Assembly (NCBI RefSeq): GCF_902652985.1
Contig: NC_047031.1
Location: 30,938,001 to 31,002,000, forward strand
Direction of reading: 5' to 3'
Length of the DNA: 64,000 nucleotides
DNA from: Pecten maximus
Taxonomy: Eukaryota
The notes below the pieces were generated by a model. It was given only the letters and a program-made list of their open reading frames with translations. It was not told the DNA's origin and did not search any database. This document shows positions 11,788 to 36,570 of the stretch, one piece after another (the stretch's first letter is position 1; every line of letters begins with the position of its first letter). The position numbers were made by a program, and so were the translations under genes.

Positions 11788-11836
11788 ATATCTATTGTGT
11801 CCAACTTTACCAAATGTCTTGCTTATGTGAATTTTT

Positions 11837-11974: not shown

Positions 11975-12232
11975 CATATCACACTTTTGAATACTTAAAA
12001 CATTCAGGTACTTTGATTGAACTGTAGATTTTCTATATAATAATATCACAATTTTGAATACTTAAAACATTAAGGTACTTTGATTGAACTGTAGATTTGC
12101 TATATAATAATATCACAATTTTAAATACTTAAAACATTAAGGTACTTAGATTGAACAGTAGATTATTATATGATAATATCATAATTCTAGATATCTATAA
12201 ACTTAAGGAACTTTGATGAAACTGTGGTTTGT
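11975..12232. repeat. 67-bp tandem repeat (3 copies plus a partial copy overlapping the gene A stop codon)
   Basis: TACTTAAAACATT at 11992, 12059 and 12126; a homologous segment at 12195-12230. Confidence 0.85.
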
Positions 12233-15200
12233 TGGATTTGTCCACACGAGAAGGGAAGTCCGTTTGACCCATCTTCAGCTTTGCGGTCTTTTGAAGATGC
12301 ACCTTATATGTTATCACTACTATGACGCCAACGACAATGGCGACTGCAGATCCAACGACTGCTCCGACAACTGGCCAAACGTTTGATTTGTTGTTAGTGG
12401 TATGGTGTTTGTGTGGTACACTCTCCTGTTGAAACATAAACAAATGAGAAAGTACAAAACCAGTTATCTAAAATTAAAACAGTATGCTGTTTGTAAAAAA
12501 AAGTAAAAATAAAATGCATTCGTTTTCTTCATTAAGACTGTATACCACGAGTATTTACTTTTACTGTTTGAAATAAATGCGTTAATTCCTTAAACATTTC
12601 ATGTCTCTGCGTGTGGATACTGTGGCTTAGATTATGTTCAATTTATAATGCAAAACAATAAATAAGCTTAAAAGTCAAAGTGATACAAATTCAATGCATT
12701 GTAATTTTGTTTTAAATATGTGTAGTTCTATCCGTCTGAAACAGATTTAGTTATATTTTTATCAATAATGACCGGAAATCACCCACATTGTGATGTGTTT
12801 CCGGAGAACCCTGGTCTGTAACTACAGGAACTAAGTCTACCACTTCCTCTTGGGCCGACGCGATCACGCTCTGTGAAGTCTCGCATCCACTTCCGGCGGA
12901 CGGCTTGGCATTTGCGGTAAAGCTATCTTGACAGCAAATTCCACTGCAGAACAACACAAGGTATGTTCTTGTACTTTAGCAATCGTTATATGGCTGTATA
13001 TGTAACGCCATATATGTCATGAAATGTGAAGATTCTGTACAAGTCCTGTATGTCTTCAAAATTAAATTGTACAAAGGATAAACAAATGCGCGGCACCATT
13101 CACAGATTAGAACTGATCTTTACAACTATTTTGTCTTTCTTAAATAATTTGGTGGTACTGGGGAAAGGGGTATGGACAAAGTGAAAGTAATTCAGAAGGT
13201 CAAAGCATGTAAATGGAGATAGGCATTCAATAGGTCAAAGTATGGAAATCGAAAATGGAATTCAGCATGTCAAAGTATTGCAATCGAGTTGGGAATTCAG
13301 CAACTCAAATTATGGAAATCAAGAGGGGAATTCATCATGTCAAAGTATTGAAATCTAGATGGGAATCCAGTATGTCAAAGTATGAAAATCGAAATGGGAA
13401 TTCAGTATGTCAAAGTATGAAAATCGAGATTAGAATTCAGTATGTCAAATAATGGAAATCAAGATGGGAATTCAGCAAGTCGAAATTGCTCCGAAAAGCA
13501 AATAACAAACCCAAATACTTAACCGGTTAAGTATTTATAAGTATATATGAGGTATCGGTTAAAGGTAAGCATTACCTGATATGTAAACGCTTCCTATCGG
13601 TAGAGTCTATGGTCAGTGAAACGTTTGTAATGTCCACGTACGTTGATACATCAAAAGAGAAGACGGCTGTAGCCGACCATGTGAACGAAGTGCAGTTACT
13701 TCCGGTGTCTGACAATCTGCACTTCCGGGATACGAAGGAAGAACATACGGCTCCAGCAAACTAAACAAGAATACATCAGAATGTTATAATTGCTGGATTT
13801 ACCTAAAATATAAGTAAATGAATAACCACATAGTATATATACCTGGCGGATTTTCAGAAAACAGATTGTTTCGTATTTATATGATAACAAACACTACACG
13901 ATACTTCTAAGCTCCATTAAAATAAAGATCATATGTGTATGATGTATTTCAAATCAAACGTGTAGTATATTTGAATGTTGTTTTACAAAATACGGGCATA
14001 GTATATTTGTATGTTGTATTACAAACCCCGTGTATAGTACAATATTCGTATGCATTGTTGCAAATCACGGATGAAGAATATTTGTATGTATTATCAAAAA
14101 ATCACGGGTATAGTATATTTGTACATATTATTACAAATCACGAGTTATCAGAATATGGCTTCTGGCACAAATGTCTACTCTAAAAAAAGCGCCTACATAC
14201 CATAACTGTTGATCTACTAGACTGAAGGACTGACGCAGATCCCGACAGTTTCACACTCACAGTATAAGTCCTACAAATAACAGATTATAATTTAAAATAA
14301 TAATCGTTCATGATTTTAAGATAGAATATAAAAGCATAACTTTTCCGTTAGAATCATTGGTGGATCTGCTTTAACCATAAAGCAGATCCACACGATGATT
14401 TTATCAGTTATTTGAAGATGTAATGATATATATGACAATGTCCCCTCCCCCCCCCCCCCCCCCCCCCCTCCATTAAAATCAAATGCAAAATGTTACAAGA
14501 AATTAATCATACTGATTGAATAATAGAAACGGAAAACATTTATTGACGAGAGTACATGTTGCTACTTAATTGTTGTTGCTTTTACAAATATACACGTACA
14601 TTTTTGTATGTTACTTTCAGATTATTTCTATAACATTACAATGACCATTCGAACACTTTTTAAACGCGTTTTTGATTTCCTATCATTCGAATGTGACAAT
14701 ATGAAAAATGCAAGATATTGATAAATCTATTAAATTGTGTTTCACGTTTAACATTTTCATATATGTAGTTATAAATCCTTAGGTTATAACTTTTAGCATA
14801 CCCAGCGTTAGCTAGATTATACCGTCGGTACATGTCATCGATTCAAAAGGATTGCACGTTATGCTAATTAGAGAAACAATTAGGTCCTGATATTCAATTA
14901 ATTAGTCCTTACACTAGTTCCAATTCATTCGGACTCAATATCTGGAAATATCCACTTGTGGTATTCCCTGCAGGTAGTATTTGCTGTTGAGATGTTGGAC
15001 TTTGAACCCTTCCCTTGTCGTCAGTAATACTGACAGTGTAGGTCTGGGGGGATCCTCCAAGGTTACTTAGTGTATATGTTATATTGTGGACTACTCCAAC
15101 ATCAAGGTTTCCTGTCAGAAATATAATATATACCTCTCCTCATATCGTATAAAGTATAATAATACAAATAAAAGACACAATGAAAGCAAGTTACTTTATA

Positions 15201-18200
15201 AATTGTATAAAGCGTAACTAAAGATCTACTTATTCATGGATGAGAAATAAAAATCAAAATAAGCATATTAAATATGTTTAAGAAAATATTTTACGTATAC
15301 TAATGGGCTTAATGGAAGTGTTCATTAGCTTATTGTGACAGTATAAGCAATTCATACCCGTTAAGAATTATCCAGTTTCTAGAAATTACGAAATAGTTTC
15401 AATTCTTGGATTATGCAACATCGGTTTATCACCTTAACAGAACTTGTATGCCTATTAATATACGAATAGTATACAATCATTTACTTTCTTTATGCTAGGA
15501 CAAATACTTGTTCACCTTAGAAGTTTGATATTCCCCGAGGTCGAAGAGGTCTTGACAAATCAGTTAAAAGTCAAATAACGATTGGTAATCTACCGTGGCT
15601 ATTAAATATAGCTCGAATAAACGAGGACTAATACATAAGTAAGCTAATATTCATACCACATATTCTAGATATATAAAGGATATCTAGCAGTGTCCTCAGG
15701 AATACCAAATACATTGCATATTTCACGAGTGCGAGGCAGGAGTGAAACATATCAAAATATTCGTCACACTAGTGAAATATATTTGGTATTACTGAAGATG
15801 CTGTTAGATATTCCGTTTATTACATTTCACAGCAAAATATACCGAGACAGCTCAAGATCTCCCAGAATTCATTGCGGTCCCCTTTCAATGGCTCACAAAT
15901 GTACACCAAATCGTGACGTTATGTATTACATCTTGTGTTATGGCGTCATACAACATTACGGAGAGATATATGCACATCTTAATTTTCCCCAATTATCGTT
16001 TCTAAGTATTGTTTTGATTGGTAAAACCAGAAAAAATATCAGAAAAAGCAAAACTTTCAAAGAATGAATACTTTTCGAAATTCAATTGGTAAAAATGTAA
16101 TAAATAGCATAAATTTACCAACTCACAAGAATATAAGTCTTCGCTTGTTTTCTACAGAATGTTGACAGACTGTTTCGCAAAATGTATTACTGAACTATGT
16201 TCTTCAAGGACAACCGCGAAAATTTAGCCAGCTATACCGAACAACTTATCAGTAACAGTATAGACCCATTTATATTTACCTTAATCCCCTTCTGGATATA
16301 GAGACCTTTCTCCCTCGCACCACTGACGAGCCACACTTTAATAATTGATATTATAAGTCACCTTTTTATTTGAATAGAGACGACCTTGACGATTTATATC
16401 ATTTGCTCACCTATTATCGGCTTCACAAATAAATCAACGCTAACAGGACTTGTCATTTTTCTACACATCCTCTTGAATTGGAAACCGTTTTGGTCAATAC
16501 CACTTAACTGTACATAGAAATCCTGAAACATAAATAAATTAGTAAAAAATAGATATGAACACAAAGTGTTAAAAAATTAAGATATAATGACGGATTTATA
16601 ACATCATTAGGTTGTCTCCCTTGCTTACCTTTGCTGGTGTAACAATTGCCATGTATCCAGTTATTTTTGAAGAACCAAACAAGATATGTACAGGATGACT
16701 GTACAGGTGCGTTCCATTGTCGTCCAGTAGATGTAGATTGAACGATGACGACGAAGAGTTCAGGTTGTAGGCGAGGACTTCCAGGGTGTAGTTTTTACCT
16801 GTGGTTAGTTTAAAAATATCACTTGAGTTTTATTCAAGTCGATGAGATATGTTTACATATCTGCCATATGCGTTTGTGTAAGGTGAATAGAATGTGATTA
16901 AGTGATAGAATATCGAGCTAAAATATCTGTGAAGTATTCTTGAACCTTTTAAATCTATCATTTGATGTGTAAATGTTTATACCGATATATTGGTTTTTTA
17001 TATATATTTACACTGTATATCATATTATTTATTTTTTGGTACGGTCTCATCTCCATATCTGTCATGATTATCTCCCCTTTTTTGTTTGAGCGATACATGG
17101 TATCATCGTCAAGATAAGCCTACTTGTTGTTATTTGCTATGTAAATGCCATCCAATAACATCAAACTACTGTAAGATGTATGTGAATACATGTAATGGAC
17201 TCCTTGGACACTATTTCAAAGTATCATACATTATTTGTTTATGCTCTCTGTAAGGTCATACGACTATCCTCGTAGGCTACTGGTATATTTTTTAAAATAA
17301 TAATAATAATATGATTTACAAACCTGCAATAGGATTACGGTCTACTACATACGAGATTCCGAATTTGTCTGTTTCTTTAAGCTGGTAGTCAACGTCCAGA
17401 TAAGTGGACGCTGTGACATTTACTGTCCATGAGGAACTGCTACGTCGGGTCAATTTCCAAATACCAGGAGTTGGCTTCTTTAAATAAAGCATTTACAGAA
17501 ATCAAATTGGATTATTTGAAAAACTTAATTTGTAAAATTGCACATAGGGTGACAAATTTGCTTGTCTCTAGTGTTGAAAATATTTACTGAGGTAATGCCA
17601 TTGTTGTAACGCCAACGACGTATCACAAACGAAACGTTCATTGATTTTATCTACTTTTTACCTAGAAATTATTGTAGTATTTAACATTTAAGAACTACAA
17701 CGGTATTACTATACTGTGTTACTTCGAATATTCATCCTTTTGTGAAACTTTATATTTACCTTGTATTACAAAAGGAATGCAACCTTCTAATTGCGACTTG
17801 TATTCGATATATCTATTAGTTGTGATTGCACTATGTATATACTAAATTGACATTCATCAGAAAATAAATTCGTGAATGCGATTCTTTGAAATTAAACCGA
17901 TAATTAACATAGAGAAAATTAAAGGTTAAGCATTATTTAAACAATACACACTTCTGGATACCGTTATTTTTCTTCTCTTATCCCTATACTTTTCTAAGTA
18001 CGATTTAACAGCGTAGGAAAGGGCTTTAGTAATGAACTAAATTTGACAAATTAACACTAAACAGCTCGGGTGATCATTCCTACCTGTATGGACATCGTAA
18101 TTGTATGACTGGAGTAATATTGAGTAGCATGTTTCGTGCTAAATGTCTGGAGAGTTCCTACAAAACAAAACAATATTAGGAAAAGGGTGGAAATGAAAAA

Positions 18201-21200
18201 GGGTAATATAATAAATATGATATTTGAATTATAGGATGGCGAGTTGTCTATGTTATATTTCATTTTGTTTAAATTGACCACTTCCGGGATGGTAATGACG
18301 TTAAACAGGAACAAAGATCGCAAAAAAAATAACCTTTCTTACATTATGCAGTTGTTTGATGCTTGTCAATAAACTTGGTAATTCCATTTTACATCTCCGT
18401 TATAGGTTTTTGCTTGTTGTTTTTATCACGGATATATCAATAAAGAATGCAAATAGAACTCTCCCACCCTGCTGTCCTTTCGTTCTCCCTCTCGCTACCA
18501 TATTTCTGTCCCTCCGTCCTCCCTCCCATTCCTCACCTTCTGTCCTTACGTCTTCCCTCTCATTCACAACCCTTTTGTTGTTCCATCCTCCCTCTCACTC
18601 CGAGCCCTTCTGTCGTACCGTCCTGCCTCCCACTCCCAGCCCTTCTGTCTTACCGTCCTCCCTCCCACTCCCAGCCCTTCTGTCGTACCGTCCTCCCTCC
18701 CACCACTCCCAGCCCTTCTGTACTTCCATCTTCCCTCCCAATCCCACCATTAGATAATAAGAGCGCAGCTCTAGGGCGCCGAAGGTGCCCGAGCGAAGCT
18801 CTCTAAATACTGGAAAACGGTACCTCCAACAAGAGTTGCCTCCCTTCCCATATAATGTACATACGAACAAAGAAAATCGTATGGTCAAAAAAACCGGTAC
18901 CGGAATGGCTCAAAACCGGATGTAGTATTCCCATGGGCAAAAATCTTGAACAATATCAACACCAAAGTCTCACTATAGTGTTTAAGCATTAGTTATATAT
19001 GACTTTTGTTCTCAGATGAAAAATAAGTAACAAAAATAGCGGTATGTTTTCGCTTTTATTTTTATCATGTCGTCCGTAACCGATCGGGAATTACCGAATG
19101 TCATCGTCTCCATTCACGTCTGACCTAGATATATTGTACACAACAAGACATGCGAGTACGTTGGAATTAAACTCAGTATAGGGTCCTTGTAATTATTTTT
19201 GTATGTGGTTCCAGTCTGATCTGATCAAAGGTAGGCATTTGCCGATAACACTGTGTTATGATCGATTCTATCATAAATATTTAGGCCGCCTTGTCGATTT
19301 ATTTTCTCAGCGTTAACGTTAGGCTTACGACAGGCACTTGATTTACATTGTAAACAATGCCGAAAGACAACTAGGCTAGGCATATGCATAGGAAACAAGT
19401 GCCTATCGGTTACGTCCCAGCTTTTTTATTGTTAGTTACAGATGATACGATGTGTCTGACTCGCATTGTATATTTAGAAGAAGGTTATATTATCTACAGC
19501 ACATGGCCATGGGGCTAGTAACCATTTAAAATGAAGCCCATGTGATAACCCTAGATTTTTATCATTTATGAAATGCAGGCTTAGTACATGTGTAGTTAGT
19601 CTACATTAGTCAGCAGAAATAAACATAGATCAACATGGCACATATGTAGGTTGTACCAAGAATAATGATTGAATTTTAAATGAAATTTATCTGAAAAATA
19701 ATTCTTTGCAATGTTTATAAAATAATTGTCATATTATATAATTATACTGTTGAGAGTATTATAGATCAGATTTCTATTGCTAAGTATAGTAACTGTTTAT
19801 TTCACAAAATATTGCCTGAAATTAATAAAAAGGAAATTTAAAACCATCTTTTGTACTCAATGTCAAAACATACAAGGACTGTTTTATTGTGTGTGTTCTA
19901 ATTAGGTGTTTGAAGTTCCAACACTTCTCCAATGCCTGGCATGTTCTTAAATGACCCTGGCAGATAATTATAAAATGAGACTCAATTTAGAGGGACATTC
20001 CTTCTTTCAGATATCAGAACCATGTACATTTTTTACTGATGAAATCCACTTTTGAACAGGGAAATAAATAAATGCCAAAATGTACAGAAAAATGATGAAT
20101 CCTACAAAAATACTGACTGACTTTCAAGTAAAAAGTGATATTTTGGTAGGAATAAAGAATTTTTAGGACTTAGAATTTGGAGAACTTGTGTTAATTACCC
20201 TGCGAGTCAAACTGTTAGATTTATGTAAATTAAAGATTCGAAGATTTACTATTTGGGAAAAAATCATATTTTCCAATAAGTTTAATTTTGATGACCTAAC
20301 CTTTGAATTTAAACTAATGATGGAATCACCCTTTAAATGAAGTAAACCAAATTTAAACCAAATGTATTACAATGTTTATGAACACATGTAAATGTACAGT
20401 GTAATATGATTTAAACCTTATAAACAACTGCTGTTAATTTCCAAAGCCTGGAAGATTATAGAATTTCTATAATTATTTTGTAATTAATCATAATTACAAA
20501 AGGAGAGTAATTGTCTATGGTGTTGACTCTTACAAATTCTGTTTTAGTGAAGACAAGAGAATACATGTTCTTACAATCAAAATTAATTAACTCGAACTAT
20601 GATAACTCAAAAACACTGATTATAAATTAAAGTATCTCACTGGTCCAAGTCAAAATCTTTGTTTTTATAGTAATAAATATATATAAGATAATTCAAAGTT
20701 TGACAACTCGAAAAACTTTGATATAAATAACTAAATTTAAACTTTCAACCAGATATTACAAAATTGACAGAACATTATAATTATATACTGATGTAATCCC
20801 AAAGTTGATTCATATTTCATTTTTGTAAAGCGCACAATGTTAACTGTTAAGTGAATTTCTTTTAAAAGTTCTCTATAAACAGATCTTCAAATCATATGTT
20901 ATAAGTACATGTCCTCGGTTCAAAGCCGTTTTGCCCAAAAATGAGTTGAAGTGACTGAATAACAGTTCAAAATGTTCTATATTCGAATTTCCATTCCAAA
21001 TATATGGTAGAATCAAATATTACACATGGTAAAAGGATCTTCAATTCAAGTCCTTTAAAATTGATATAATTTAATGCACCTTGGGTCTGTAGTTTTTTTT
21101 TTAAGATGAGGGGACCCGTGTTATTTAGTTAACTCAATGCAAAAACAGAAATTATATAATAGAAGTATCAGAATGGGATATCTGTGCAATAGTATATATG

Positions 21201-24200
21201 TTTATATATTTATGTACATGTGTATATACATATATATAGAATAAAACTTGTAGAAACCTTGTGAATCGATTAAATATATATATGTATATATATATATATT
21301 GGCACTATGACTGATCCACAGTGGCCTGAGTAGTGGGACCAAAAAGCGTAAAATTGACGAAACTTCTAAACTTCCAGATATGAAGAAATCAAACTTATCC
21401 TTCATGGATGAAAGAGACTTGATTAAGGTACTTTTCAAAATATTAGATTTTTTTTTTTTTTTTTTTACCACAGGGTGTCCTGTTCTGTTACCCTATAGGG
21501 ATGGGTTATAGAAATAATTATTTAATTCATATACAGAAATCACACTTTTTGGCCTTATTTAATTTGTTCAATTAATTTATTAAATAAAAGCGAGTTTACA
21601 ACCATCACTACAAATATTTAATAGCAGTGGCGTCAATATTTGTTTAAAGTCCACATTTGACAGTGTTATTGAGTTGTATGCTGTCAGATTGAATTGAAAC
21701 TGGTGAGGGTACTGATACAATCATACTGTTGTACATGCTCCTATACTGTACATGCACGCGCACCTATCCATCATTTAGAGGATTTTTTTCCAGGTTCACC
21801 TATTTTTGGGTAAAATAAAAATACTAACGGAATTTTGTGAAGTTATGTTCAGATTCACTTTAAACTGTGTTATAAAAGCAATATTAATCTAATTGAAACT
21901 TAAATGTCTTTACAGATTCACATATTTTGGCCTCAAAACTGAATTTTGAGAATTTTCATTAAAGTTCAGTTTTCACCCTATCTCAATGTCTCACTGAACA
22001 CTGGTTACTGATATTATTTAATTACTTGAACACTACTCCATAAATTGAAAGATGTTATTGATAAAGCGAGAAAGATGAGATATATAATTCTGTATAATTC
22101 TTTTTATATAAGGCCTTTTGATGACTTATCATGGCCTTGTGATTTTCATAAATCTGCTAATATAATGAAAAAATTTACATATATATTACATAAACAGATA
22201 TATATACACGTATACAAGTGACAATTAGATTAGCTGTGCTCTTCCAAGGCTTTGCCTTCATTCATATTATAATTGAATGTTAACCATTTGGAAGTAGTAG
22301 TAATTGTGTAATTATATAGGGCAAATATAGTGTTTACCATTGAGTAGTAGTAATTGTATAATTATATAGGACATATAGAGTGTTTATCATTGGGTAGTAG
22401 TAATTGTATAATAATATAAGACAAATACAGTGTTTACCATTGAGTAGTAGTAATTGTATAATTATATAGGACAAATAGAGTGTTTACCATTGGATAGTAG
22501 TAATTGTATAAGTATATAAGACAAATATAGTGTTTACCATTGAGTAGTAGTAATTGTATAATTATATAAGACAAATATGTGTTTACCATTGGGTAGAAGT
22601 AATTGTATAATTATATAGTACAAATGGAGAGTTTACCATTAGGTAGCAGCAATTGTATGATTATATAGGACAAATAGAGTGTTTACCATTGAGTAGTAAG
22701 TAATTGTATAATCATATAAGACAAATAGAGTGTTTACCATTGGGTAGTAGTAATTGTATAATTATATAGGAAAAATAGAGTGTTTACCATTGGGTAGTAG
22801 TAATTGTATAATTATATAGGACAAATAGAGTGTTTACCATTGGGTAGTAAGTAATTGCATAATAATATAAGACAAATAGTGTGTTTACCATTGAGTAGTA
22901 GTAATTGTATGATTATATAGGACAAATATAGTGTTTACCATTAGGTAGCAGCAATTGTATGATTATATAGTACAAATGGAGAGTTTACCATTAGGTAGCA
23001 GCAATTGTATGATTATATAGGACAAATAGAGTGTTTACCATTGAGTAGTAGTAATTGTATAAATATATAGGACAAATAGAATGTTTACCATTGAGCAGTA
23101 GTAATTGTATAAATATATAGATGTAGGACAAATAGAATGTTTACCATTGAGCAGTAGTAATTGTATAAATATATAGATGTAGGACAAATAGAATGTTTAC
23201 TATTGAGCAGTAGTAATTGTATAATTATATAGATGTAGGACAAATAGAATGTTTACCATTGGGTAGTAAGTAATTGTATGATTATATTAGACAAATAGAA
23301 TGTTAACCATTTGGTAGCATTCATTTTATAATTATATAGATGTAGGACAAATAGAGAGTTTACCATTAGGTAGTAGTAATGGTATAAATATATAGGAAAA
23401 ATAGAGAGTTTACCATTTGGTAGCATTCATTTTATAATTATATAGATGTAGGACAAATAGAGAGTTTACCATTAGGTAGTAGTAATGGTATAAATATATA
23501 GGAAAAATAGAGAGTTTACCATTTGGTAGCATTCATTTTATAATTATATAGATGTAGGACAAATAGAGAGTTTACCATTAGGTAGTAGTAATGGTATAAA
23601 TATATAGGAAAAATAGAGAGTTTACCATTTGGTAGCATTCATTTTATAATTATATAGATGTAGGACAAATAGAGAGTTTACCATTAGGTAGTAGTAATGG
23701 TATAAATATATAGGAAAAATAGAGAGTTTACTATTTGGTAGCATTCATTTTGTAATTATATAGATGTAGGACAAATAGAGAGTTTACCATTAGGTAGTAG
23801 TAATGGTATAAATATATAGGAAAAATAGAGAGTTTACCATTTGGTAGCATTCATTTTGTAATTATATAGATGTAGGACAAATAGAGAGTTTACCATTAGG
23901 TAGTAGTAATGGTATAAATATATAGGAAAAATAGAGAGTTTACCATTTGGTAGCATTCATTTTGTAATTATATAGATGTAGGACAAATAGAGAGTTTACC
24001 ATTAGGTAGAGCCAGTAACGCCTGAGACAAAACGTACGGTCCTTTGATGGTGATAACGAGGACGGCTGCGTCACTGTCCACAATTATATCCATGGTGTCG
24101 TTGTCTGAGGTTGTCCGGACAAAGTAGTCAATAATGGCTTCGGAGGACGGGAAATCTTTCTGTTAATGTATAAATGTTACTAATGTGATCGTTACGTTAA

Positions 24201-27200
24201 AAGGAGCATGGTATACCTGTATAACGATGGTTCCCTAATGACAACTTACACAAGGTATAGGTGGCAGTAGATTGTGACCTTTCAATAGTTGCGTTTTTAT
24301 TTTCGCGTAACTCTTGCGTTAGATGTATAATACTTAATTCTTAAATAGCATAATGTATACCCGATGGAAACAAGAGATATTGGTATATAGGTACAATTGT
24401 ATGAAACACTTTATTTGGTTGGGATAATGATCACATGCACAAACTAATGTTATTTTATGATTTAAATTAAAGGGGAACAACTCTTCATTTATAGATACCA
24501 ATGGCAAACACAAAAGTACCCTCAGCATTAGGCAAATGTAACTTTTTAAATAGCTTGTTACAAAAGTGTTTCTTTAAACAAATATTATATTATTAACTGA
24601 ATTAATTGATCACTTTTTAAATTAAATTCGCCTGATTTAAAAATAAAAATAGACAAAAATACCGAGAGTTCTGATTTTTGCTTTCTAAATGAATACACAA
24701 ACCGACTAAACCGAAACATGACATTTATTTATTGAAAATCGTCCATCCTTTCTATATTATCTACTGACGTTGAATGTTAGGTCATCATATTCCACCCACC
24801 TATTCTGTCGAGAAAGAAAGATCGGTAGCCTCCGGTTAAAATCGACATAAGTTATACTATCAATATGTCACTGTCTGTATGCATATATGTATGTGTATAC
24901 CTACCTCAAGTATAGTATCTAGGACAGCGGTGACGTCAGTGTGGTCTATAAGGTGAACACTACCATTAGTACTAAGAGCAAGGGTCTCGAAGGCTGAACC
25001 TCTTGTTTGTGGCTGCAGTACGTCTGAGTTTAACATAAAATTATACTGTTAATTAATTGATTAATAGGATGAAGTCAAATGAAAAATGTTACCATTTTGG
25101 TATATTCTGTTATATAACATTATAAAAGTCAACTTACCATCAATATATAAAGTTCGAACCGACCTCAGTTTCATCACGATCCTTACCTTATATTGAACTC
25201 TTCCATAGGTAAGTATTACAGAATTTAAGCAAAATTTTTACCGATCTAAAATTCAAGAAAAGCTCTAAGTAGATTGTCAACTAAATGAAATATTGGCAAA
25301 AATATGATATAATAATAAAAAGATAAATAACGATTGAAAATTAACAGTTGTAAATGTAACTAGACGGGATTATTATTATAATCGTAAGGGCAAAGGATAT
25401 ATAAATAAATATGTCAATGTATGAAATATATCAATATTCATGAGACACACGCGCATGCTATCTTGATGTATTGATATATTTCATAAATTGACATATTTAT
25501 TTATATATCTTTTGCCTTACGATAATAAGAATCCCGTCCTGTTACATTTGATAAATAAATGTGTCGATGTGTAAAATATATAAATATATCTTCGATATAG
25601 CAAATATTAAAACACAGGAGAAAACCTAGATTATGGAGGAAGTACATTTGTTTTCGCTTGCGATATGATGAGATTTAACACAGAAATTAGATGTTTGATT
25701 TTGTTAAACGTCCTATTAACAGCCAGGGTCATTTAAGGACGTGCCAGGTTTTCGAGGTGGAGGAAAGCCGGAGTACCTGGAGAAAAACCACCGGCCTTCG
25801 GTCAGCACCTGGCAACTGCCCCACATAGGCTTCGAACTCGCAACCCAGAGGTGGAGGGCTAGTGTTAAAGTGTCGGGACACCTTAACCACTCGGCCACCG
25901 CGGCCCCTTACACAGAGATTAAACTCTCTTGGATAAGAAATTGTATACATTTTCACAAAAAACAAAAGTCAAAGTTGTTCGACACACAAAAAGACGGCAT
26001 ACCTCTACGACGTCGACTAGATCCAGAACAATTGCCTGTAAGTATGAACTCCAGTGTGATATGTTTCGCAGTAGCTTCTTTTATAGCCAAGTCCGTCATA
26101 TTCTCATCCTTGGCGTCAGCATCCGTAGCGATGTAGATTTTAGAATATGGATCGGATGCATTAATAGCTATGAAGTATATAATATTACTATATAAATATC
26201 ACTACATATAATAGTCTCATGTTTATATTGGAATTTTAATTGATATTATTATCAGGTATCTTTGAAATATAGATACAAAATTCTATTCCATTCTTTCATT
26301 ACTTTCCAATAGATCTTTTTCTAACATTAATGTTTCATTTTGCGTTTTCTCTAATTAAGTAATTATAAGTTTGCTATTTCCATTGATAGGTCAGTGGTAA
26401 TATACTATGTTGTAAGACTTACCAGCTCGTACTCCAGACAGGGCAAATTCGGGACAGTCACCTCCCCCATCTACTGTCAGCCTTTCTATCCACCGTATCA
26501 TCTCGTTACCGTCGGCTGTTGCGTTGACCGTGGTCAGGTTTGCTACAATATACAATAAGTTCTTAAAACAACAGGGAATAACACAATTAAAACATAACCA
26601 TATTCTAAATAAAAAAAGAAAAAAAAAACTACGATCTACATTTACAAGGTTGGTAAAGGCAGAAGACGCTTAACCTTCCTGAACATCTGGTTAATTGGTG
26701 TGCCATATTGCTCCCCTATATCTCATTCACAACGTGCCCTAGTTAATTGATTGTACATGTAGTTACGTTTGCGTTGACGCACACAGTAACTGTTTGATAA
26801 AATCACAAACAATGTCCGACTTATCTGACGTTATAGATACTATAAGCTCTAATATTACACACATATGAAAACTTGCTGATGCCTATTTTTATTTTTGCTT
26901 TTTTTCTGTTTTCCATTTGTTTTTAATACGGTCCATGATAAACGTATTTATATTGGTAGTGTAAACCACTACCCGACAGAAATCCACCCCTTTCTGCAAG
27001 TGTATTTCGAACCCATGTTCTGGAGAAAATGATCTGAAGCTCCCAGTTGGCTGCACTGATCACGACCTCAGTATACCGTCAACGCATTACCGGTCACGGC
27101 TACCGAATATGATAACATATGTACATTGTATGTATTACCTACCTGGATCACTGAAGGTCGACAGGACATACTTGGTCGGCTCGTTCTGTGTTCCAATAGC

Positions 27201-30200
27201 TGCTGACAACTTGCCGATTAAAGTTTCTTTGACAGACCTGATATCGTTGGCCATCGATCCAGTGACGTCAATAACAAAACCCATTGTCAGTTCATGAGTC
27301 ACTCTTTTTAATTTGAATATGTTCTTCATGATCGCCGTGTTAACCCCTCTAAGAAAACCTGTCGCTTTAAACAGCACAAAAAATACAAATTAATACATTT
27401 TACATCTTTTTGAAAAGTAATCATATACTTAGCAAGTATCATTGGTAATATGTGGGATGAAAATAAAGGCTATTCTTATCCTGGCATATATTATTCGTAA
27501 CGATGATATCCAGTTCTATAAAAACAATAATTACAAATAGCTATCATGTATAATTAAGTATCATATAGAATGATAATCACTATGAATCATTAGTAGTGTA
27601 TCCTTAATTGTCTTAGAAAGGTTTCCAGGATTGATTCCTGACTTAATTCATGAGTTTGAATTATATGAAATAGATAAAAATAATTTTTGAAATGCTGCTT
27701 TTTTTCTATGCTTTTTTGTTTGTTTTTTTTTTGTTTTTTGCTTTTTGTTTTTTTTTGTTTTAAAATATAACTCATGTGAAGTAGTGTATACATTTGAAAA
27801 TAACTTTTGGAAAAAAGTCTAAATAATATAAATCAAATAACACAGGTATATAAGTAAAGCATACTGGCGTCAATGAAGAACGCTTCCGTCGCTCTGACCG
27901 CCGTCAGTCCGGAAATGTTGTGTAGATGCGCGTGCGGAGACCAGGTCCAATCCGGAGTCTCCTTGTTTATCCCTCCAGTTGCTGCTGTGTTCTTCCCGAA
28001 GTCATTCACTCCACCGTGACTACATTTACCCTCAGTAGCGAGAGGATCGGCTGATAATTATGTTAAAAGATAATTCATCATATATTTGTTATCGCCAGAA
28101 TGGGAATTACAAGTAAGTTACCAAATTTAAAATGATGTTGTAAAAACAAAACAACGAATATAACCTTGTTTTTATTTTGCTGATGTTTCTCACAGCAATG
28201 CTATTTCTTGCAAACATCCATATACGCGTTCCTTCATATTCAATGTGTATGCATTATACTTTAAGAATCTACAATGTCAATACATACATTCGGGTGTCTT
28301 GATGGTTAGATAAATGTCGTGTACCAGTTAGAAAATGGTCTTTTCAAGACTTGTTGGGGCACCATGATCACGGAAGTTTATTGCATTTTAAGCTGCAAAA
28401 TCACGTACTTGTTAGAATAATCTGACTGAGACAAGTACTATATCAAATTCAGAAATAGTTAGAATTTATATGACAATATATATATATATGTGATGTTTTT
28501 CTAGTTCAGAAGCAACTGTGAATCCTTTGCAAAGTAGGGCGAAATGTAAAATTCGTCATCGAAACGTGAGTTTTTGCTCATATTAAATTATCAAAGCAGT
28601 CTAGTGTTTATCTTTGATACCAAAAAGACTCCCCTGCTTTTAAGCAATCTCTCAGCCTTATAATATTTAGAAAGGCAAAGAATGCCAAGCTTTAGAGCTC
28701 GCCAAACTTTGTGAAGGCTTTATGAAATTAACGTAATCTTATAAATGTTTTAATACGATTTGAATTATTTCTGGACTAGACTTTTTTTCAGATTGTATTT
28801 ATAAATAAATAATTTTGTAGCTGAATGCCACTACTATATTCTGTGATTATTCCCTAACGGGTACGTGACAGTATAGATGTATGTGTGGCCATCCTGAACG
28901 GAAGTCGAGGAAATCAAAATGAATTGATATGTACCGATAAAATTAAGGTAACAATGTAATCAGATACTCCTAAACCATCCGATTATGACACTTTTATTCC
29001 TAAATATCTTTATTTACACAAGGACACTAAAAATATTAACAAAAAAACACCAATATGTTAATTTTCATGATCAATGATTTTGAGAATTTGAAAAAACGGA
29101 ATGGACAACTTTAAAGTTTGTTCTTATGTTCTTGCTGACGTAAAATATGTTCAGTCGATTTTTACAGTAAAAATAAAATCTTGGTCGAGAAGGATCAGTT
29201 AAGGATCATCTATATAGCAGAATAATGTTGAATTTCAAACACGAATAAATATCTTAAAATTTGCACAAAAATAGTCATGTTATATACCAAAATGTTTTTG
29301 TGGACATGTAGTGTCTTAAAATCACAAATAATTTGATGTAGATGCTAACAATTTCTTCTATAGAGTTACTTTGTGGTAAGTTGTAGCATGGAATAATTCT
29401 AAGTCACAAAAATAACCAAACCTGAAAAATAGCCCAGCTGTCATGCTCACAAGTGTCCATAGCACAGGGTAGGAGCATTTGTTTGACCGGATTTGACTTT
29501 ATGTACGTATAAACACATATTTTGTTTTGACCTTGAAATGCAAATGGCGGCTGTGGACGATATTACACAAATATGGCATAAAGGGAGGCATTTCAGCCAT
29601 TGAAAATGCTCCTATATCATACTTTTAAAAACATCTGATTATAGTAAGAATGGACTATTTAAGACAAATTGTCAAACTGATGAGTTTTGGGCCTTTTTCA
29701 GAAATATATATCTTTTACCCCAAACTCAACGGATGAACGGTCCTAAAAACAGTCTTCCTACCATGTCTAGAGTTTCTCTATAGTATCTAATATGAGCATT
29801 TTTGACGTTTGAAATACCTTTTTATATGCCATGATTGTGTGATATTACTCATAACCGCCGTTTGCATTTCAAGGTCTAAATAAAATCAGTGTTAATACAT
29901 ATCATAAATTCCAACCTAGTCAAACCAATGCTCCTATTTTGTGCTTTAGACCCTTGTTAACAAAACGCCATGACTGTTTTGCACAATAAATGCGATACAA
30001 ATGTGTGAATCATGTCCCCCTGAAACATGCATTTTTCTCATGTTTTCTTGAAATGTACGAACTACTGAACAAATTAAATGTCAACAGCAAGGCCCACAGT
30101 TTGACATGATGCATATCAAAGTTTTATCAAGTTACTTCTATTAAATTGCACCCCAGTAGGGATGTATAGCCTTGTAAAATAGCAACAGTTTTGGCTGGAT

Positions 30201-33200
30201 TTGCTGTTTAGATGCCCCTTAATGAATATGATAGGTCTAGAGTTCTAAGGATATAAATCGAGGGTCACGTTTTGATTTTTTAAATATTGCCGGTTTAATC
30301 TATTATATAATTATTAAAGGATATCCTTACTTTAAATACTGGTAAGATGTAAAGTTAACCTACGGCCGTACAGGTATTGGTTACACAGGGAGGTTTTTGT
30401 GGTTGCTAAGGCAACACTAAGTGACATTAAATGATGATGTGATGGCGTCCGTGTAATGATGACCACGTATCGTGAGAATCAAAAATATTAGCAATTATTC
30501 CGCAACCGCTAAAAGTGTTACAGAAACTATTTTGCAATCTCACATGAAAGGAAATTGATATATCGATGCCATTTATTATAATGATATATATTTTGACACC
30601 AAACAGACTCACCTGTTGGTTTCGGATAGTGCAGTTGACCATACAGATAGCCACTGGTCAAACGGTCGTGGACCAGCAAGTTGTTGTTACAGGAACTACA
30701 AAAATAATACATGGAAGGTGTAATGTAAACAAATTTACATTGACTGTGTCGTCTCTTGCATATATTAGCACACAATGCAATTATGAACCTAGCAAATAGT
30801 CATAATGAACCGAATACAAATCGACAATGAACTCAAGACAAATACAAAATGAACCGTGCATAAATACAAAATCAACCCAGCACAAATACGTTATGTTCCG
30901 AACACAAATACATAATGAATGGACCATGCACAAGTGCATTATAAACAGAGCACAAATTCATAATAAATTATCTAAAAACACATAATGAATCCAGCACAAA
31001 TACACCGATTGCAAATATGTTCAATGTTAAAATTAAACAACATAGTTTAGTGTAGGTTATACCAAACTACGTCATAGAGTTATTTTTGCTTGTTTGATAA
31101 GTGCCAGAATTCAAAGGTTGGAAATCTAGATTGTCTATCACGCGATAAAGACTAAGGAAAGGCATATATATTACTGTATAGTTATAAACTTCCAGGCGAA
31201 AATATTTCGAAGTTGTCCAAGTCGGAACTTATTCGTATGTATTAAGTTTCGCACAACACCGATTTGTAAATATTCTGCAGTAACGTTTGTATGAATTGCT
31301 TTGTGTATGTTAATATTACGAAGGGTATTCATTAACGGGCTATAATCAATTGGCCCCAAAGTTAGCGAAACCAAATCTCAACCAAAAACAGCCAACTATA
31401 CAGTAATCATATTAATACAGAAGAATTTTCTGGTCAATACTGACACATGTAATTATATCTGAGTGTCAATACTATTCAAACGACAGATTTTGAAATAGAA
31501 CTGATAGCTTATCTTAGCTGTTATTAATTCATTTAGCTTTTACATCACCTAGCAATCTACATTTAATCAATGAGCAGTATAAACAAGTGTCTGTTATTGT
31601 CTGATAATTGGTCCGTTCTTATCATACTTAATAATGAAAAGGTTGTTATTTCATATTAGAAGTTGAGAACAGTAACTAAACGTAATGATGGACCTAGAGA
31701 CGGACAACACGCCTTTCAATGCCGTCCTGCTCTCAATAGGGACAAAGGAAGATTGAGAATTTAAGACGTAAATATCAACCAAACGACTTACCTAGCCACG
31801 GTATCGTCACAGTTACGGCAGGTCACAGTACCTGGTGCGGCAACTTTCACATTAAAGGCGTCAAGAGTTCCTTTGGAAAAAAGTACAGAAACACTGTTTA
31901 TGGATATTTTACATTTCAACACAAATATGTTATGCAGCATCATTTACTCACAGGTTGAACAACGAAAAGATGCTACAAGTTATACGATATCCTGGCGTTT
32001 TAATTGTCTACTTGGTAACTTTCAAATTAAAGGCGGAGAGAGTTCCTTTGTAAAAAGAGTGAAGAAACAATGTCTACGGATATTGCACAAATCATGAATT
32101 ATGTAAAAGTATCTCTTGATTTTTTTTTTACATCAAGACTCGATTTAATCTTACTTTCTATTCATCTTGCTCCATAAACATGGCATTTTTAAAATAACAA
32201 AATACCTAAGTCTATGAAACAAATACCAATAAGATATAAGATAACATGCGTTTCAAATTCCAGTATAGCATTATCAAACCAGGTGTTTCTTAAGCATTGA
32301 ACTGCTTTCTGTTGGAAGTTATGGGCTGATGAATGCCAACTGGACAAAGGCAAATTTCATGAAGCGCTAGCTAGCGCTTCATGTTGAATTTGCCTTTGTC
32401 CAGTTGGCATTCATCAGCCCATAACTTCCAACTGAAAGCAGTTCAATGCTTATATTTACATTTGACAACGTTTTTTTAAAGACTATATCCAGGAAGTTTG
32501 CTCCGACAATGAATGAACAAATTATTATCGTCAAAGACGGAACAGCCTTTTCAACAGCCATCTTTCGTTATCGCCGACGTGACAATTATGACGTCACTAT
32601 ATTAATGACGTCATAATAAAGACTTGGAAGTTATGGACTCATAACTTCCAAGTGAGCTTGATAAAGTTATATAGTGGGGCTGCAGTGTAAATGTAAATAT
32701 TAAAGAGTGAGCGTCTCTGCTTCATCGATGACATCCACCATACAAATCTAGGTCAAATCCAGATAAAGTCAAATTCTTAAATTGAGAACTAGTGTAGTGA
32801 CAATGTAATCACTGGACAATCAACAAGCATCCAAACACGGCTGACATTTATGACGACGGATAGTTGCCCTTAAATCGCTTGATATTTTAACATTACTGCT
32901 GGACGCGTTTCGTAGGTGTTGTTATACCTTCTTTTTCGAGTACATATTAATCTAATGATGACACAAATGTATTACTACATGTAAAAACTATATCAAATTA
33001 CGATATAAGATAACATATATAATGAACTCTAGCACAGGTGCTTGATTCAAAGTATTATGCAGTATATTATCTTATTTCTCGGACGGTCGGGGTTCGATTC
33101 CTCGATCGAAGTTGAAAATGTTAACGATCACTGACCAACCACGTGGTTTTTCTCCATGCGGGCCAACACGCGTGATTAATATAAGTTGATATGTCAGACT

Positions 33201-36200
33201 TACAGTATGAAAAACAAAAACATACAATGCTACAGGTTATACGATATCCTAGCGTGTAATGGTCTACTAAATAACTAATAATGTAAGTATTACTATTATA
33301 AATAATTGCAAATTTTTGCAGAAAACTTAAACATAACACAGAGAACAAGATTAGAGCCAAGCTTTTCGAACATTGGTAAAAATTAACAGCTTAACAACAA
33401 TTTTAAGATTCTGCAAAAAATCCTGTCGGGTAAAACCATTTCCACATTTTTTTAAAAAACCATACCACTAATTAGTCTCTTCCTACCTGCTGATACACAT
33501 AATCAGGTTTGAACAAGTGGATCCAAATGACGTTAATAATAACATAGAGGAACAATTTCAACTTGTTACCAGCACTGTATAATAATAGAATATGCTGTTT
33601 ATAGTATAACAAAGAGACACAATTTAAACTTATTACAAGTATGATAACAATACGATATGCTGTTTATAATATAACAAAGAGACACAATTTTGGAGAAAAT
33701 AAGAATTGATGTCCGATGAAACACCATCTAAAAATACCCCTCTGATCTCTATATATCATTGCATGTACACTCACCGAAATTTAGGTAGGTCTCTCCACCA
33801 TTCACCATCATCTCTATCCAGTTCGTGTTACTGTAGAAGGACTGGATGATCATTAAACACTTCCCCACTTTATCCACCATAATGTTCATCTTCGCATCAT
33901 TTAACGGTCCTGATGATAGGATGGACGCTATCTCTAATCGCGTTGCCTGGACAAGACTGTCAGCTGTGCAATGAGAAAAAAGTCGATTTACATAAAAATA
34001 CTTGTATACAATAAACATGATCTCAATTTTAATCGAATCCACTCCAAACGTTGGCCAAGCTTTTGCCAGTCTTATATATATTGCTTTATAACCCGTTTCA
34101 TACAAGCGTTGTACGATAAAATAATTAGCGTTTATAAGGAAGGTTATGCCATTTGTTAATTTTAGTTTTTATTTAATATACGGGATATCCTAACGTTAAG
34201 GTTTCGTCAATGGTGGTTTGCTGCTTTTAATGTATGCATTGATTGAAGAGCAAGAAAAGTTTTGATTATTTTAACACAAAGTTAACTGAGGATTAATTCA
34301 TTTACTGCGTTATAATGAAACACGTTTATTACTTCAATTAATACCTCGATACCAGAACTATAGAGAATAAACGGAATACCATTCAAATACTCAATAGTGG
34401 TTCATAATATCAACTGATTGTATAAATATGATTTTAGAAAGACCATTAAAAGCATGTACTTTATCGACTGTGACTCATTATATCAACTTATTGTATAACT
34501 GTAATTTTAGGGGGAAATGGAACTCTTTATCAACAGTATTTCATAAAATCAACTTAATGTATCAATATCACTTTAGAGAGACCGTTAAAGTTATGTACTT
34601 TATCGACTGTGACTCATAATATCATCTGATTCCACATGTGTAATTTAAGGGAGACCATTCGAATATTTTATTGCCAGTGATTCATAATAAAATTCATTGT
34701 GTAACTGCAATTAAAGAGAGACCATTTGAGTCCTTAACCAAACAAATGTTCACAATATAAACTAATTATTTAACTACAAAAACATGGTACATGTAAACAA
34801 ATTTGCGTACCACGCAATTGTGTGTACCAATCAGAAAGACATCTAAATAGAAAACACAACATATCCACAAACCTTCCGCTATCCTCTCAGAGTTGACGGT
34901 GTATTCCGGGTTGGTATGGTATGTTCTGTAGACCTTCATTACGGCTGCCGCGAACTCCTTACCTCTTTTTTGGTATTCTTTGTAACTGTTTGTATCTGTA
35001 ATATTATATTATTATAATATTATGTGTAACAAAAATTGCAGATCAATTCGACTTATTACATCAGATTAAAACTATATAAAAGTGTGCAAATCTTAAAACA
35101 ACACGAAAGAAATCGTAAAACATATCGACAATGATAATTGATATTTTATCAATTTCGATTTTAAGGTGGTAACACATATCTGTTTTAGCAGCAGAATAAC
35201 AGTGCTTTTTCTGTGTAATAATATGTCAGAATCGCGCTATCAAAAGGTAACTTATTTTGATATGTCCAACTAAGCAATGTTACTAGGTTGACATATCAGA
35301 TCGTATTCAACTTCGCTTAAATTAGAGTGGTAAAAAACGTTGGCCTCTTAGGTCGTGTTATAATGTGACCTAGACTGTTTTGCTGTGGAAATAAAATAAA
35401 ATAGGAACATATAAACAAAAATTAAAAGAAGAAGAAAAAGACTATTCCGAAATAAGTGGTACTTTTTTCACCTTTTCAATGATTTCTGTGTGAAGGTATC
35501 TTCTGTATAAATGTACCATGGTTTATAGAATCTTCGGAATTCCCTTTTATAAAGATTCCGTTTACAACTGTACATAATCTTGCAATTAGCAAACATTATA
35601 ATCCTTGGCGGTATTACAACTAAAGAATCATGATCTGTCGTTTCAGAAATTATATACAATATCCGAATTTTAGTAACCGTCTTTCCCTGCATTCAGTAAA
35701 TAGGTATGGTTTTATCTAAATGTGTCATAATATTTCGTTTGTTTTCATATTCATTGTTGTATTAGCTGTGATCAAGGGTACATCGTATCTCGATCATGAC
35801 ACTTCATGCAAATATGTACTATACTTTGCTATAATATCACTTCATTATCCGTGTCAGATTTGTTCCAGATATATTATCTCAAAGATAAGATACATAGAAC
35901 TGTCGATCACACATCTCAAGAAGGAATTACTCCTGGTTAACAGCACTTATATACTTAATCGTAATCTAGGCCGGAATATGTGTCATTAAATTGAGCTATA
36001 TTAGGAAACCCATACCTTAATGGTGTCATCGGTTAAGTTAAGGTAAAGTAAACCCTTTGTTCTTGTCCTAAAAAAATACAAATCGGTTATTGGGGAAAAG
36101 TGTTAGAGAAACCCAGATTACTAGCATGTAATGATTGGTAAATATATATATATATATGTTTTGTATGTGTGCCATGATGAATTGCGGTTCGTTGTAGTTA

Positions 36201-36570
36201 GACATTATTGGATGGTAAGTCTGATTACAATGAACATATTACTTCCTCTATGCCCTGAATGACTTTATAAAAATAAGTTATAATGTCGAATATGTATTTT
36301 AATTAATGACGTAATGACTAAAAACCAGACAGTTGTACAATACATACCTGATCCGAAATATTCTTTGAAAATGTCTTTAGGATCAGTCTTTGCTGTGTTT
36401 AATTGACCGCTAGATGTCAGAAACTTGGCGGCCGCCCTCTCCACTCCCTCCAGAGTAATACTCTCGTGAGTGTACATAGAGGGGTCATCTCCTTGACCAA
36501 TGGTCGGCTTAAACGCCAAAGTTCCAACAGCAAGAAATGAACAGAGACACAGCAGGAACAATGACATCAT
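12195..36570 (-). CDS. VWA7-like type I membrane protein, paralogue A (20 exons, ~1006 aa)
   Basis: Exons (GT-AG, phases consistent, total 3021 nt): 36570-36348, 34995-34873, 33963-33775, 31870-31792, 30695-30613, 28050-27865, 27364-27143, 26542-26423, 26167-26003, 25023-24905, 24159-24000, 18157-18084, 17477-17324, 16798-16629, 16522-16411, 15111-14913, 14270-14201, 13760-13576, 12943-12787, 12425-12195. Signal peptide MMSLFLLCLCSFLAVGTLA|FKP. VWA7 motifs THESIT, QSFYSNTNWIE, LTSGY, KCSHGG, GGINKE, SPHAHLH. VWA motifs FVIDVTGSM, FSDP, GGGDCPE, IYIATDADAKD. TM VWPVVGAVVGSAVAIVVGVIVVITY. Exon sizes match paralogues B and C. Confidence 0.9.
13195..13485. repeat. 35-bp tandem repeat, ~8 copies (intron of gene A)
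   Basis: Unit ~GGAATTCAGTATGTCAAAGTATGGAAATCGAGATG; explains spurious ORF 13255..13452. Confidence 0.85.
15678..16104. mobile_element. Hairpin-ended non-autonomous element
   Basis: Imperfect palindrome 15678-15814, then TTTATTACATTT, with its inverse AAATGTAATAAA at 16093-16104. Confidence 0.5.
18460..18750. repeat. C/T-rich ~35-bp tandem repeat
   Basis: Unit ~CCGTCCTCCCTCCCACTCCCAGCCCTTCTGTCGTA; source of the Pro/Ser-rich spurious ORFs. Confidence 0.8.
22280..24009. repeat. 50/56-bp minisatellite with a 106-bp higher-order dimer, ~33 monomers
   Basis: Unit TTTACCATTGAGTAGTAGTAATTGTATAATTATATAGGACAAATAGAGTG. The dimer starts at 23359, 23465, 23571, 23677, 23783, 23889 and 23995; the last copy is the gene A exon 11/intron junction. 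Confidence 0.95.
25353..25549. mobile_element. Fold-back MITE (~200 bp palindrome)
   Basis: AAATGTAAC..GACGGGATT...ATAAATAAATATGTCAAT arm inverted as ATTGACATATTTATTTAT...AATCCCGTC..GTTACATTT. Confidence 0.65.
25695..25907 (-). mobile_element. tRNA-derived V-SINE, full-length copy in an intron of gene A
   Basis: Reverse strand reads GGGGCCGCGGTGGCCGAGTGG...GAGTTCGAAGCC (A and B boxes), followed by the same body as 420-637. Confidence 0.82.
29199..30222. mobile_element. Kolobok-like non-autonomous DNA element with TTAA ends
   Basis: Left end TTAAGGATCATCTATATAGCAG; right end (reverse complement) TTAAGGGGCATCTAAACAGCAA. Internal inverted arms ~29450-29620 and ~29790-29960. Confidence 0.5.
32291..32700. 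mobile_element. Hairpin-ended non-autonomous element
   Basis: Near-perfect palindrome 32291-32452 centred on GCGCTAGCTAGCGC, then ATATTTACATTT, with its inverse AAATGTAAATAT at 32689-32700. Confidence 0.65.
34395..34775. repeat. Degenerate 66-73 bp tandem repeat, ~6 copies
   Basis: TCATAATATCAACT-like motif at 34402, 34475, 34541, 34614, 34682 and 34750. Confidence 0.65.

What the first reader, a model, noticed from the sequence alone, without database searches (positions are those of the whole stretch)
22280..24009. A 1.7 kb minisatellite built from the gene's own splice donor
On the minus strand exon 11 ends ...CTACCTAATG|GTAAAC. The repeat unit is the last ~10 exonic nt plus ~40-46 intronic nt, so about 30 near-copies of the ATG|GTAAAC donor follow in tandem. 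The paralogous junction in C (57944, CCAAATG|GTAAGC) has no array. Reading past the first donor reaches TAA within 11 codons, so use of any distal donor would give NMD or a secreted, TM-less product. The array is polarised: homogeneous 106-bp dimers next to the exon and older 50-bp monomers distally. Copy number could tune splicing efficiency (inference).
Basis: partly seen in the sequence, partly recalled or inferred. Interest (0 to 1): 0.7.

Follow-up and report, generated by a model that had tools for sequence, protein, structure and literature searches.

The report
Repeated splice donor in scallop VWA7
A roughly 50-base piece covering the end of one exon of a scallop VWA7-like membrane-protein gene and its splice signal is repeated 33 more times in the next intron; the assembled RNA, which comes from a different allele, uses the first signal, so the copies are likely silent, as in similar repeats known from human and lancelet genes.

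Summary
The array at 22280-24009 repeats the exon 11/intron 11 junction of a 20-exon VWA7-like gene. The authentic ATG|GTAAAC donor is followed by 33 units, 28 with the identical 9-mer; the unit occurs nowhere else in the genome. This is a known kind of repeat: amphioxus 'mirages' and the human F7, CBS and ABCA7 VNTRs. The scan has reported it before at other loci of this genome. Three more such arrays sit in paralogs of this gene family. RNA contigs from two runs of one study join exon 11 to exon 12 at the first donor, and none enters the array. That transcript, however, differs from the reference by about 10% in exons 10-11, so it may come from an array-free haplotype. The donor is weak (rank 80-81 of 85). 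The NCBI model of this gene (XP_033725344.1, 566 aa) ends by reading through it to the stop in unit 1. This is most likely an annotation artefact, but it leaves a truncating allele open. Tuning of splicing by copy number is untested. 'Older distally' describes homogenisation, not ancestry.

The parts
12195..36570 (-). Gene A: VWA7-like protein, 20 exons, 1006 aa, with predicted signal peptide, VWA7_N, VWA_4, Ig-like region and a C-terminal hydrophobic (predicted TM) segment in exon 20
   Evidence: Open model; Pfam PF25107 and PF25106 on single exons; 100% match to P0003; junctions 10/11, 12/13, 14/15, 15/16 and 16/17 listed as joints in RNA contigs, exons 13 and 14 contiguous in the X1 record
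24000..24159 (-). Exon 11 (160 nt, ends in phase 1)
23994..24002 (-). Authentic, weak donor ATG|GTAAAC (no +5G)
   Evidence: Local PWM 2.67 bits against a median of 9.05, rank 80-81 of 85; used in the X1 and X4 contigs
22280..24009 (-). Junction-spanning minisatellite ('mirage'): 33 downstream donor-like units, 28 with the identical 9-mer; only 2 AG dinucleotides on the sense strand, so no internal acceptor for pseudo-exons
23308..23999 (-). Recently homogenised block, 6.5 dimers of 56+50 bp (units 1-13)
22285..23307 (-). Heterogeneous 49-56 bp monomers (units 14-33) with traces of an older higher-order duplication (units 19 and 26 identical)
23968..23970 (-). In-frame TAA in unit 1; ends the 566-aa NCBI model and precedes every pseudo-donor
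22259..22274 (-). Unique distal flank matching the end of the 56-bp unit (15/16), a likely remnant of the original intron start
18084..18157 (-). Exon 12 and its acceptor
57936..57946 (-). Paralogous exon 11 donor in gene C (ATG|GTAAGC), single copy

Best explanation
The array is a locally born minisatellite made of the last 10 or so bases of exon 11 and the first 40-46 bases of intron 11 of a scallop VWA7-like gene, and its 33 extra donor-like sites are likely silent because splicing likely takes the first donor. Inferred origin: one short tandem duplication across the exon-intron border, then expansion and homogenisation by unequal exchange or slippage, most recently as a 106-bp dimer next to the exon. 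Inferred tolerance: the first copy keeps the exon intact and the array has no internal acceptor. Only donors 2 and 3 give exon lengths (216, 266 nt) near the family's range (maximum 222 nt in 80 internal exons). Any leak to them would carry a stop codon and would probably be removed by NMD. The array would then be near-neutral cargo with no evolved role.
For: The unit is locus-specific (18 of 18 genome matches in the array). Paralogs C, D and E lack it at this junction, and E has the same weak donor in one copy. RNA: in run X1 a 2545-nt contig has 108 letters between place 24034 and the start of exon 13, exactly the remaining 34 nt of exon 11 plus the 74 nt of exon 12; the 1317-nt contig of X4 gives the same 108 (the records were matched across calls by length and depth). 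The listed loose end at acceptor 18158 differs from the authentic exon end at 4 of 30 letters and from 6 pseudo-donor flanks at 16-19 of 30. No contig was laid on 23895-24020 in 4 of 4 runs (X2 had no cover anywhere on that stretch). Base rate: TRF covers 14.6% and 13.5% of the two paralog clusters, and 39 GT sites in the 4.1-kb non-array part of intron 11 score at least as well as the authentic donor. Three more splice-site arrays lie in paralogs. Precedent: only the first donor is used in F7 IVS7 (PMC1557585), and mirages do not disturb splicing in amphioxus (PMC3087553).
Against: The RNA contig is not the reference allele. It differs from gene A at 19 of 636 letters in exons 13-16, but at 15 of 156 in exon 11 and at 10 of 121 plus a 3-nt insertion in exon 10. 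Its exon 11 end is closer to paralogs D and E (4 and 3 of 30) than to reference A (8 of 30). It may come from a haplotype without the array. All informative runs are from one study, contigs drop rare forms, and 159 loose-end rows were not shown. The donor is among the weakest in the family. The NCBI model of this gene reads through it and stops in unit 1, and no protein for exons 12-20 of this gene turned up (weak evidence). In CBS, 6-16 and ABCA7 the nearest one or two pseudo-donors are used to some degree (PMC1557585 introduction; PMC5954066 passages).
Confidence: 0.7

Rival explanations
1. The array impairs splicing on the chromosome that carries it. The weak donor competes with 28 identical neighbours, and read-through or use of donors 2-3 would give NMD substrates or a secreted 566-aa VWA7_N+VWA protein without the Ig-like region and membrane anchor. 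The array allele would be a hypomorph or a soluble-isoform allele beside an array-free, membrane-bound allele.
For: XP_033725344.1 is identical to the gene A model up to the end of exon 11 and ends in the read-through peptide. The donor is weak. The only spliced RNA seen comes from a divergent haplotype. ABCA7 shows one-unit retention with a PTC and lower expression with length (PMC5954066 passages).
Against: Exons 12-20 of the reference are intact, with canonical junctions. No RNA contig enters the array. The NCBI model can be explained by failed read alignment: 8 mismatches in 30 of the last 34 exon bases, then a 5.8-kb intron with repeated donors (inference). The neighbouring paralog D has a 3.8-kb donor array and is modelled full length (P0004).
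Confidence: 0.2
2. The array is a selected, length-variable rheostat: copy number would set the ratio of membrane-bound to secreted or degraded product.
For: Precedent only: ABCA7 VNTR length correlates with expression and exon 19 skipping. Splice-site arrays are 4 of 12 arrays inside the family's genes, against 1.07 expected (P=0.016).
Against: No sign of selection. The array is absent from three paralogous junctions, and 5 of 33 units have decayed donors. Without the ascertained array the excess is 3 of 11 against 0.97 (P=0.065). Two of those three repeat acceptors rather than donors. Length polymorphism was not measurable here.
Confidence: 0.06
3. The homogeneous dimer block is inflated or smoothed by the assembly, so copy number and polarity are partly artefacts.
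For: Units 1-13 are 96-100% identical at lag 2, the kind of sequence assemblers collapse or polish (general knowledge).
Against: The block carries ordered private variants (one state in units 1, 3 and 5, another in 7-13; a lost G before donor 6), and units 14-33 are almost all distinct. No gap letters occur in the stretch.
Confidence: 0.04

Closest known systems
Amphioxus 'mirages' (Adh3; globins BflGb6, BflGb9); Ebner et al. 2010, PMC3087553, passages read; the Adh3 work is known only through those passages
   Same: Tandem duplication of an exon-intron boundary into the intron of an invertebrate gene; most but not all units keep the splice signal; concerted evolution within the cluster; both donor and acceptor types occur, as in this gene family.
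   Different: Mollusc; 34 units against 3-6 for BflGb6; here the unit at the exon is part of the homogenised block, whereas Ebner reports cluster boundaries excluded; haplotype length variation not shown here.
Human F7 IVS7 37-bp VNTR; Borensztajn et al. 2006, PMC1557585, abstract, Introduction and Discussion read
   Same: First unit spans the exon-intron junction; identical pseudo-donors follow; only the most upstream is used.
   Different: F7 has 5-9 units and 4 exonic bases; here 34 units, 10 or more exonic bases and a two-unit higher-order repeat. All distal donors here follow a stop, whereas two in F7 would be in frame. Polymorphism and latent competence of pseudo-donors are shown for F7 and untested here.
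CBS IVS13, 6-16 intron 2, lamin B2 and PDGF intron 4 minisatellites (seen only as summarised in the PMC1557585 Introduction)
   Same: 10-25 reiterated donors; the 6-16 array (25 pseudo-sites) is close in copy number.
   Different: CBS and 6-16 also use the two nearest pseudo-sites; this was not seen here, on limited data.
ABCA7 intron 18 25-bp VNTR; De Roeck et al. 2018, PMC5954066, passages read
   Same: Each unit begins at a donor GT; use of the next unit gives a PTC.
   Different: Length variation (12-427 units) and its correlation with expression and exon skipping are measured there; nothing of the kind is shown here.
Internal tandem repeats at exon-intron borders of duplicated human genes; De Grassi and Ciccarelli 2009, PMC2812944, passages read
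   Same: Minisatellite expansion that distinguishes recent paralogs at an exon border.
   Different: Many of those create new introns or alternative transcripts; here the protein-coding structure is unchanged.

Membership tests
Junction-spanning minisatellite (mirage / F7-type) | First unit contains an authentic exon-intron boundary | tested here: met
   Gene model and RNA place the donor at 24000, inside unit 1
Junction-spanning minisatellite (mirage / F7-type) | Head-to-tail copies extend into the intron and most keep the splice signal | tested here: met
   28 of 33 downstream units have the identical 9-mer; 32 of 33 keep GT
Junction-spanning minisatellite (mirage / F7-type) | Unit derived locally, not from a dispersed repeat family | tested here: met
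   18 of 18 pattern matches and 4 of 4 DNA matches in the genome lie in this array; paralogs have single junctions
Junction-spanning minisatellite (mirage / F7-type) | Regular splicing at the authentic site on the array-bearing allele | tested here: inconclusive
   First donor used in the X1 and X4 contigs, but from a divergent haplotype whose intron is unknown; the NCBI model reads through
Junction-spanning minisatellite (mirage / F7-type) | Length variation between haplotypes (VNTR) | not testable with these tools
Splicing-regulating VNTR (ABCA7-type) | Array length correlates with junction use or expression | not testable with these tools
   Needs genotyped animals with raw RNA reads; only contigs were served
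VWA7/hemicentin-like proteins (host gene) | VWA7_N domain followed by a VWA_4 domain | tested here: met
   PF25107 E=1.6e-13 on exon 6 and PF25106 E<=1.7e-7 on exons 7-9; Ig_VWA7 and GBD_Hemicentin below cut-off; 4 of 12 exons had no hit

The most novel reading that the evidence does not exclude
The scallop population segregates two haplotypes of this gene: an array-free one, partly converted from a neighbouring paralog, that makes the full membrane-anchored VWA7-like protein, and the array-bearing one, where 28 copies of an already weak donor push transcripts into read-through and a secreted 566-aa form. A minisatellite grown from a splice site would then act as a membrane-versus-secreted allele switch.
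Probability: 0.12. Interest if true: 0.6.

Novelty: new member of a known kind. Interest (0 to 1): 0.25.

Why it matters
As it stands it is another clean, large example of a known repeat type. It suggests that first-donor preference also holds in a mollusc with a weak donor, and it flags a probable annotation error: the NCBI model stops in the array and lacks nine intact exons. The family is a convenient natural panel, with donor arrays of 34 and about 106 copies, two acceptor arrays and array-free paralogous junctions, for testing how splice-site choice tolerates reiterated sites. It would matter more if the array allele proved to shift the product from membrane-bound to secreted.

Tried and rejected
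Dispersed element or transposon origin: rejected, no copy elsewhere in the genome (the DNA search skips common words, the pattern search is exact). Pseudo-exons or recursive splicing inside the array: rejected, only 2 AG on the sense strand and neither is followed by GT. In-frame extension by any distal donor: rejected, the TAA comes before donor 2. Homology of the unit's intronic part to the intron start of paralog E looked good by eye but is not significant once the shared GTAAAC is removed (p 0.11-0.91 over 8 units); C and D also give nothing convincing (one p=0.048 among 16 tests). RNA structure hiding the pseudo-donors: no strong fold (z=-1.68; 4 of 100 shuffles as stable), uninformative. 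A separate protein for exons 12-20 was not found, which is weak evidence. Run X2 gave no contig on the donor side and X6 covered no exon. Enrichment of arrays at splice sites is suggestive only: cluster 2 exon edges come from tblastn, the site count of its last gene is too low, and 60 kb of that cluster were not fetched. The PWM uses 81 donors from five related genes, at least two of them mis-placed by my snapping, so it is a rough ranking. Zhuo et al. 2007 (PMC1783408) is not held and is known only from a reference list. PMC10078293 passages added nothing specific. Searches for a printed description of this locus or of such arrays in bivalves found none among the listed titles (listings only, subscription journals largely missing). 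No supplements were opened.

Full report
Setting. The window lies on contig C17 of a 918-Mb genome. Exon 7 of the host gene matches at 100% a protein labelled 'von Willebrand factor A domain-containing protein 7-like [Pecten maximus]'. The minus strand holds a tandem cluster of VWA7-like genes. Gene A (36570-12195) has 20 exons and an open 1006-aa frame; B and C follow in the window, and D and E beyond it. A second cluster of four paralogs lies 17 Mb away. Pfam finds VWA7_N and VWA_4 on exons 6-9.

Observation. The array is real: TRF period 50 over 22294-24009 and period 106 over 23018-24009. Anchoring on the donor gives 34 sites: the authentic donor at 24000 and 33 downstream, of which 28 repeat ATG|GTAAAC exactly, 4 are variants that keep GT and 1 has lost GT. 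All 29 copies of the 9-mer in the window are in the array; base shuffles give 0.002. A 22-nt unit pattern matches 18 times in the genome, all here. Paralogs C, D and E have a single junction. Read-through hits TAA at 23970-23968, 24 nt before donor 2, so every distal donor carries the stop. The array's sense strand has two AG dinucleotides, neither followed by GT, so it offers no internal acceptor or recursive site.

Anatomy and history. Units 1-13 alternate 56 and 50 bp with 98.5% and 100% identity within type; units 18-33 average 87.9%. Units 19 and 26 are identical and sites 14 and 34 share a variant, traces of an older block duplication. The 56-bp type ends in a 16-mer that matches the unique DNA just past the array at 15 positions (0 of 500 shuffles for unit 7), and the six other units tested do not match significantly. 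I infer that the first duplication covered about 10 exonic and 46 intronic bases, that the proximal block was homogenised last, and that the distal monomers are diverged rather than ancestral. The 50-bp dimer partner also matches the exon end of paralog E at four further in-register bases, so its exonic share may reach 18 nt; this is unresolved. The donor is weak: 2.67 bits on a local matrix against a median of 9.05, rank 80-81 of 85 (rough). Paralog E has the same 9-mer without an array, so the weakness came first.

RNA. Four of 24 listed runs hold the stretch, all as contigs and all from one study. Reads were laid on the two flanks, not across the array. In X1 one 2545-nt contig covers exon 11 to place 24034 at record 820 and resumes exon 13 at record 929: 108 letters, equal to the last 34 nt of exon 11 plus the 74 nt of exon 12. 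X4 gives the same 108. The loose end at the exon 12 acceptor fits the true exon end (4 of 30 differences) and not six pseudo-donor flanks (16-19 of 30). No contig lies on 23895-24020. The limit is serious. The contig is 97% identical to gene A in exons 13-16, where paralog D is 80-88% identical to A, but it differs by about 10% in exons 10-11, and its exon 11 end is nearer to D and E. It is an allele or recombinant of A whose intron 11 is unknown. Contigs also drop rare forms, and 159 loose-end rows were not shown.

The contrary lead. No protein for exons 12-20 of this gene was found (weak). I read this most likely as an annotation failure: reads from divergent alleles mismatch the last exon bases and face a 5.8-kb intron with repeated donors (inference). 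The downstream exons are intact, and paralog D, which has a larger donor array, is modelled full length. Real read-through on the array allele is not excluded; I give it about 0.2.

Base rate. Tandem repeats cover 13.5-14.6% of the two clusters. Other splice-site arrays in the family are a 3.8-kb array with 106 copies of the exon 7 donor in D, four extra copies of the exon 15 acceptor in D, a 2.9-kb acceptor array in a cluster 2 gene, and a degenerate exon 1 donor repeat in E. Of 12 arrays inside the genes, 4 span a splice site against 1.07 expected (P=0.016); without the array I was given, 3 of 11 against 0.97 (P=0.065). That is a hint of excess, not proof. The scan's notes list the same kind of array at CCDC40, UCK and two SLC22 genes of this genome (unchecked by me) and nothing near this locus.

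Mechanism. Shown: local origin, reiterated donors, a stop before all distal donors, no internal acceptor, and first-donor splicing in one haplotype. Inferred: expansion by unequal exchange or slippage; preference for the most upstream donor through exon definition (donors 2-5 would give exons of 216, 266, 322 and 372 nt, against a family maximum of 222); removal of any leak by NMD; near neutrality.

Comparison. This is the structure called a mirage in amphioxus (PMC3087553, passages) and studied in the F7 IVS7 VNTR, where identical pseudo-donors are functional but unused (PMC1557585, abstract, Introduction, Discussion). That paper lists CBS, 6-16, lamin B2 and PDGF. ABCA7 is the precedent for a length effect (PMC5954066, passages). 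Three defining features are met, splicing on the array allele is inconclusive, and length variation could not be tested. My searches listed no paper on this locus or on such arrays in bivalves (listings only).

Verdict. Observation confirmed; interpretation partly supported. New member of a known kind, interest 0.25. The one open point of value is whether the array-bearing haplotype makes the truncated form that the public annotation shows.

Noticed in passing
L016-L015 region, G000:C17:31033524-31037362 (paralog D intron 7): 3.8-kb minisatellite of 30/34-bp units carrying 106 copies of the strong exon 7 donor CAG|GTA; read-through stops two codons after the donor. A larger example than the finding itself.
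   Followed up: partly
L015, G000:C17:31027644-31027870 (paralog D intron 14): 57-bp repeat with four extra copies of the exon 15 acceptor.
   Followed up: partly
L039, G000:C17:13722665-13725605: 2.9-kb, 34-bp array (about 88 copies) ending in the exon 14 acceptor of a distant paralog.
   Followed up: partly
L020, G000:C17:31073615-31074012 (paralog E intron 1): Degenerate repeat of about 90 bp with three further donor-like copies of the exon 1 junction.
   Followed up: partly
window 11976-12225: 67-bp repeat (3.7 copies) that begins in the last codons of exon 20 of gene A and covers the stop codon region.
   Followed up: partly
window 24000-25025: The expressed RNA differs from the reference by about 10% in exons 10-11 but 3% in exons 13-16, with all five listed exon 11 changes matching paralog D: possible gene conversion between tandem paralogs or an unassembled copy. 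X3 also holds a near-reference exon 10 contig at low depth.
   Followed up: partly
window 41850-49355 (gene B): Paralog B has exons 1-9 only, then a short exon with a hydrophobic stretch and stop at about 41968-41850: a possible short membrane form or a truncated copy.
   Followed up: partly
L035-L036, G000:C17:13689000-13697000: Exons 18-19 of one cluster 2 paralog appear four times in tandem.
   Followed up: no
window 9521-11788: 15-bp minisatellite, 151 copies, giving long repetitive open frames on both strands; probably non-coding.
   Followed up: no
window 62502-62987: Broken fragment resembling a mariner-type transposase (family recalled, not tested) in an intron of paralog C.
   Followed up: no
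window 15640-16215: Dispersed repeat in intron 15 of gene A that draws many high-depth RNA contigs from elsewhere in all four runs; a second dispersed element recurs at 424-623, 25700-25898 and 39819-39928.
   Followed up: no
P0001, P0002: Mizuhopecten homologs carry the VWA domain twice, unlike the Pecten proteins.
   Followed up: no
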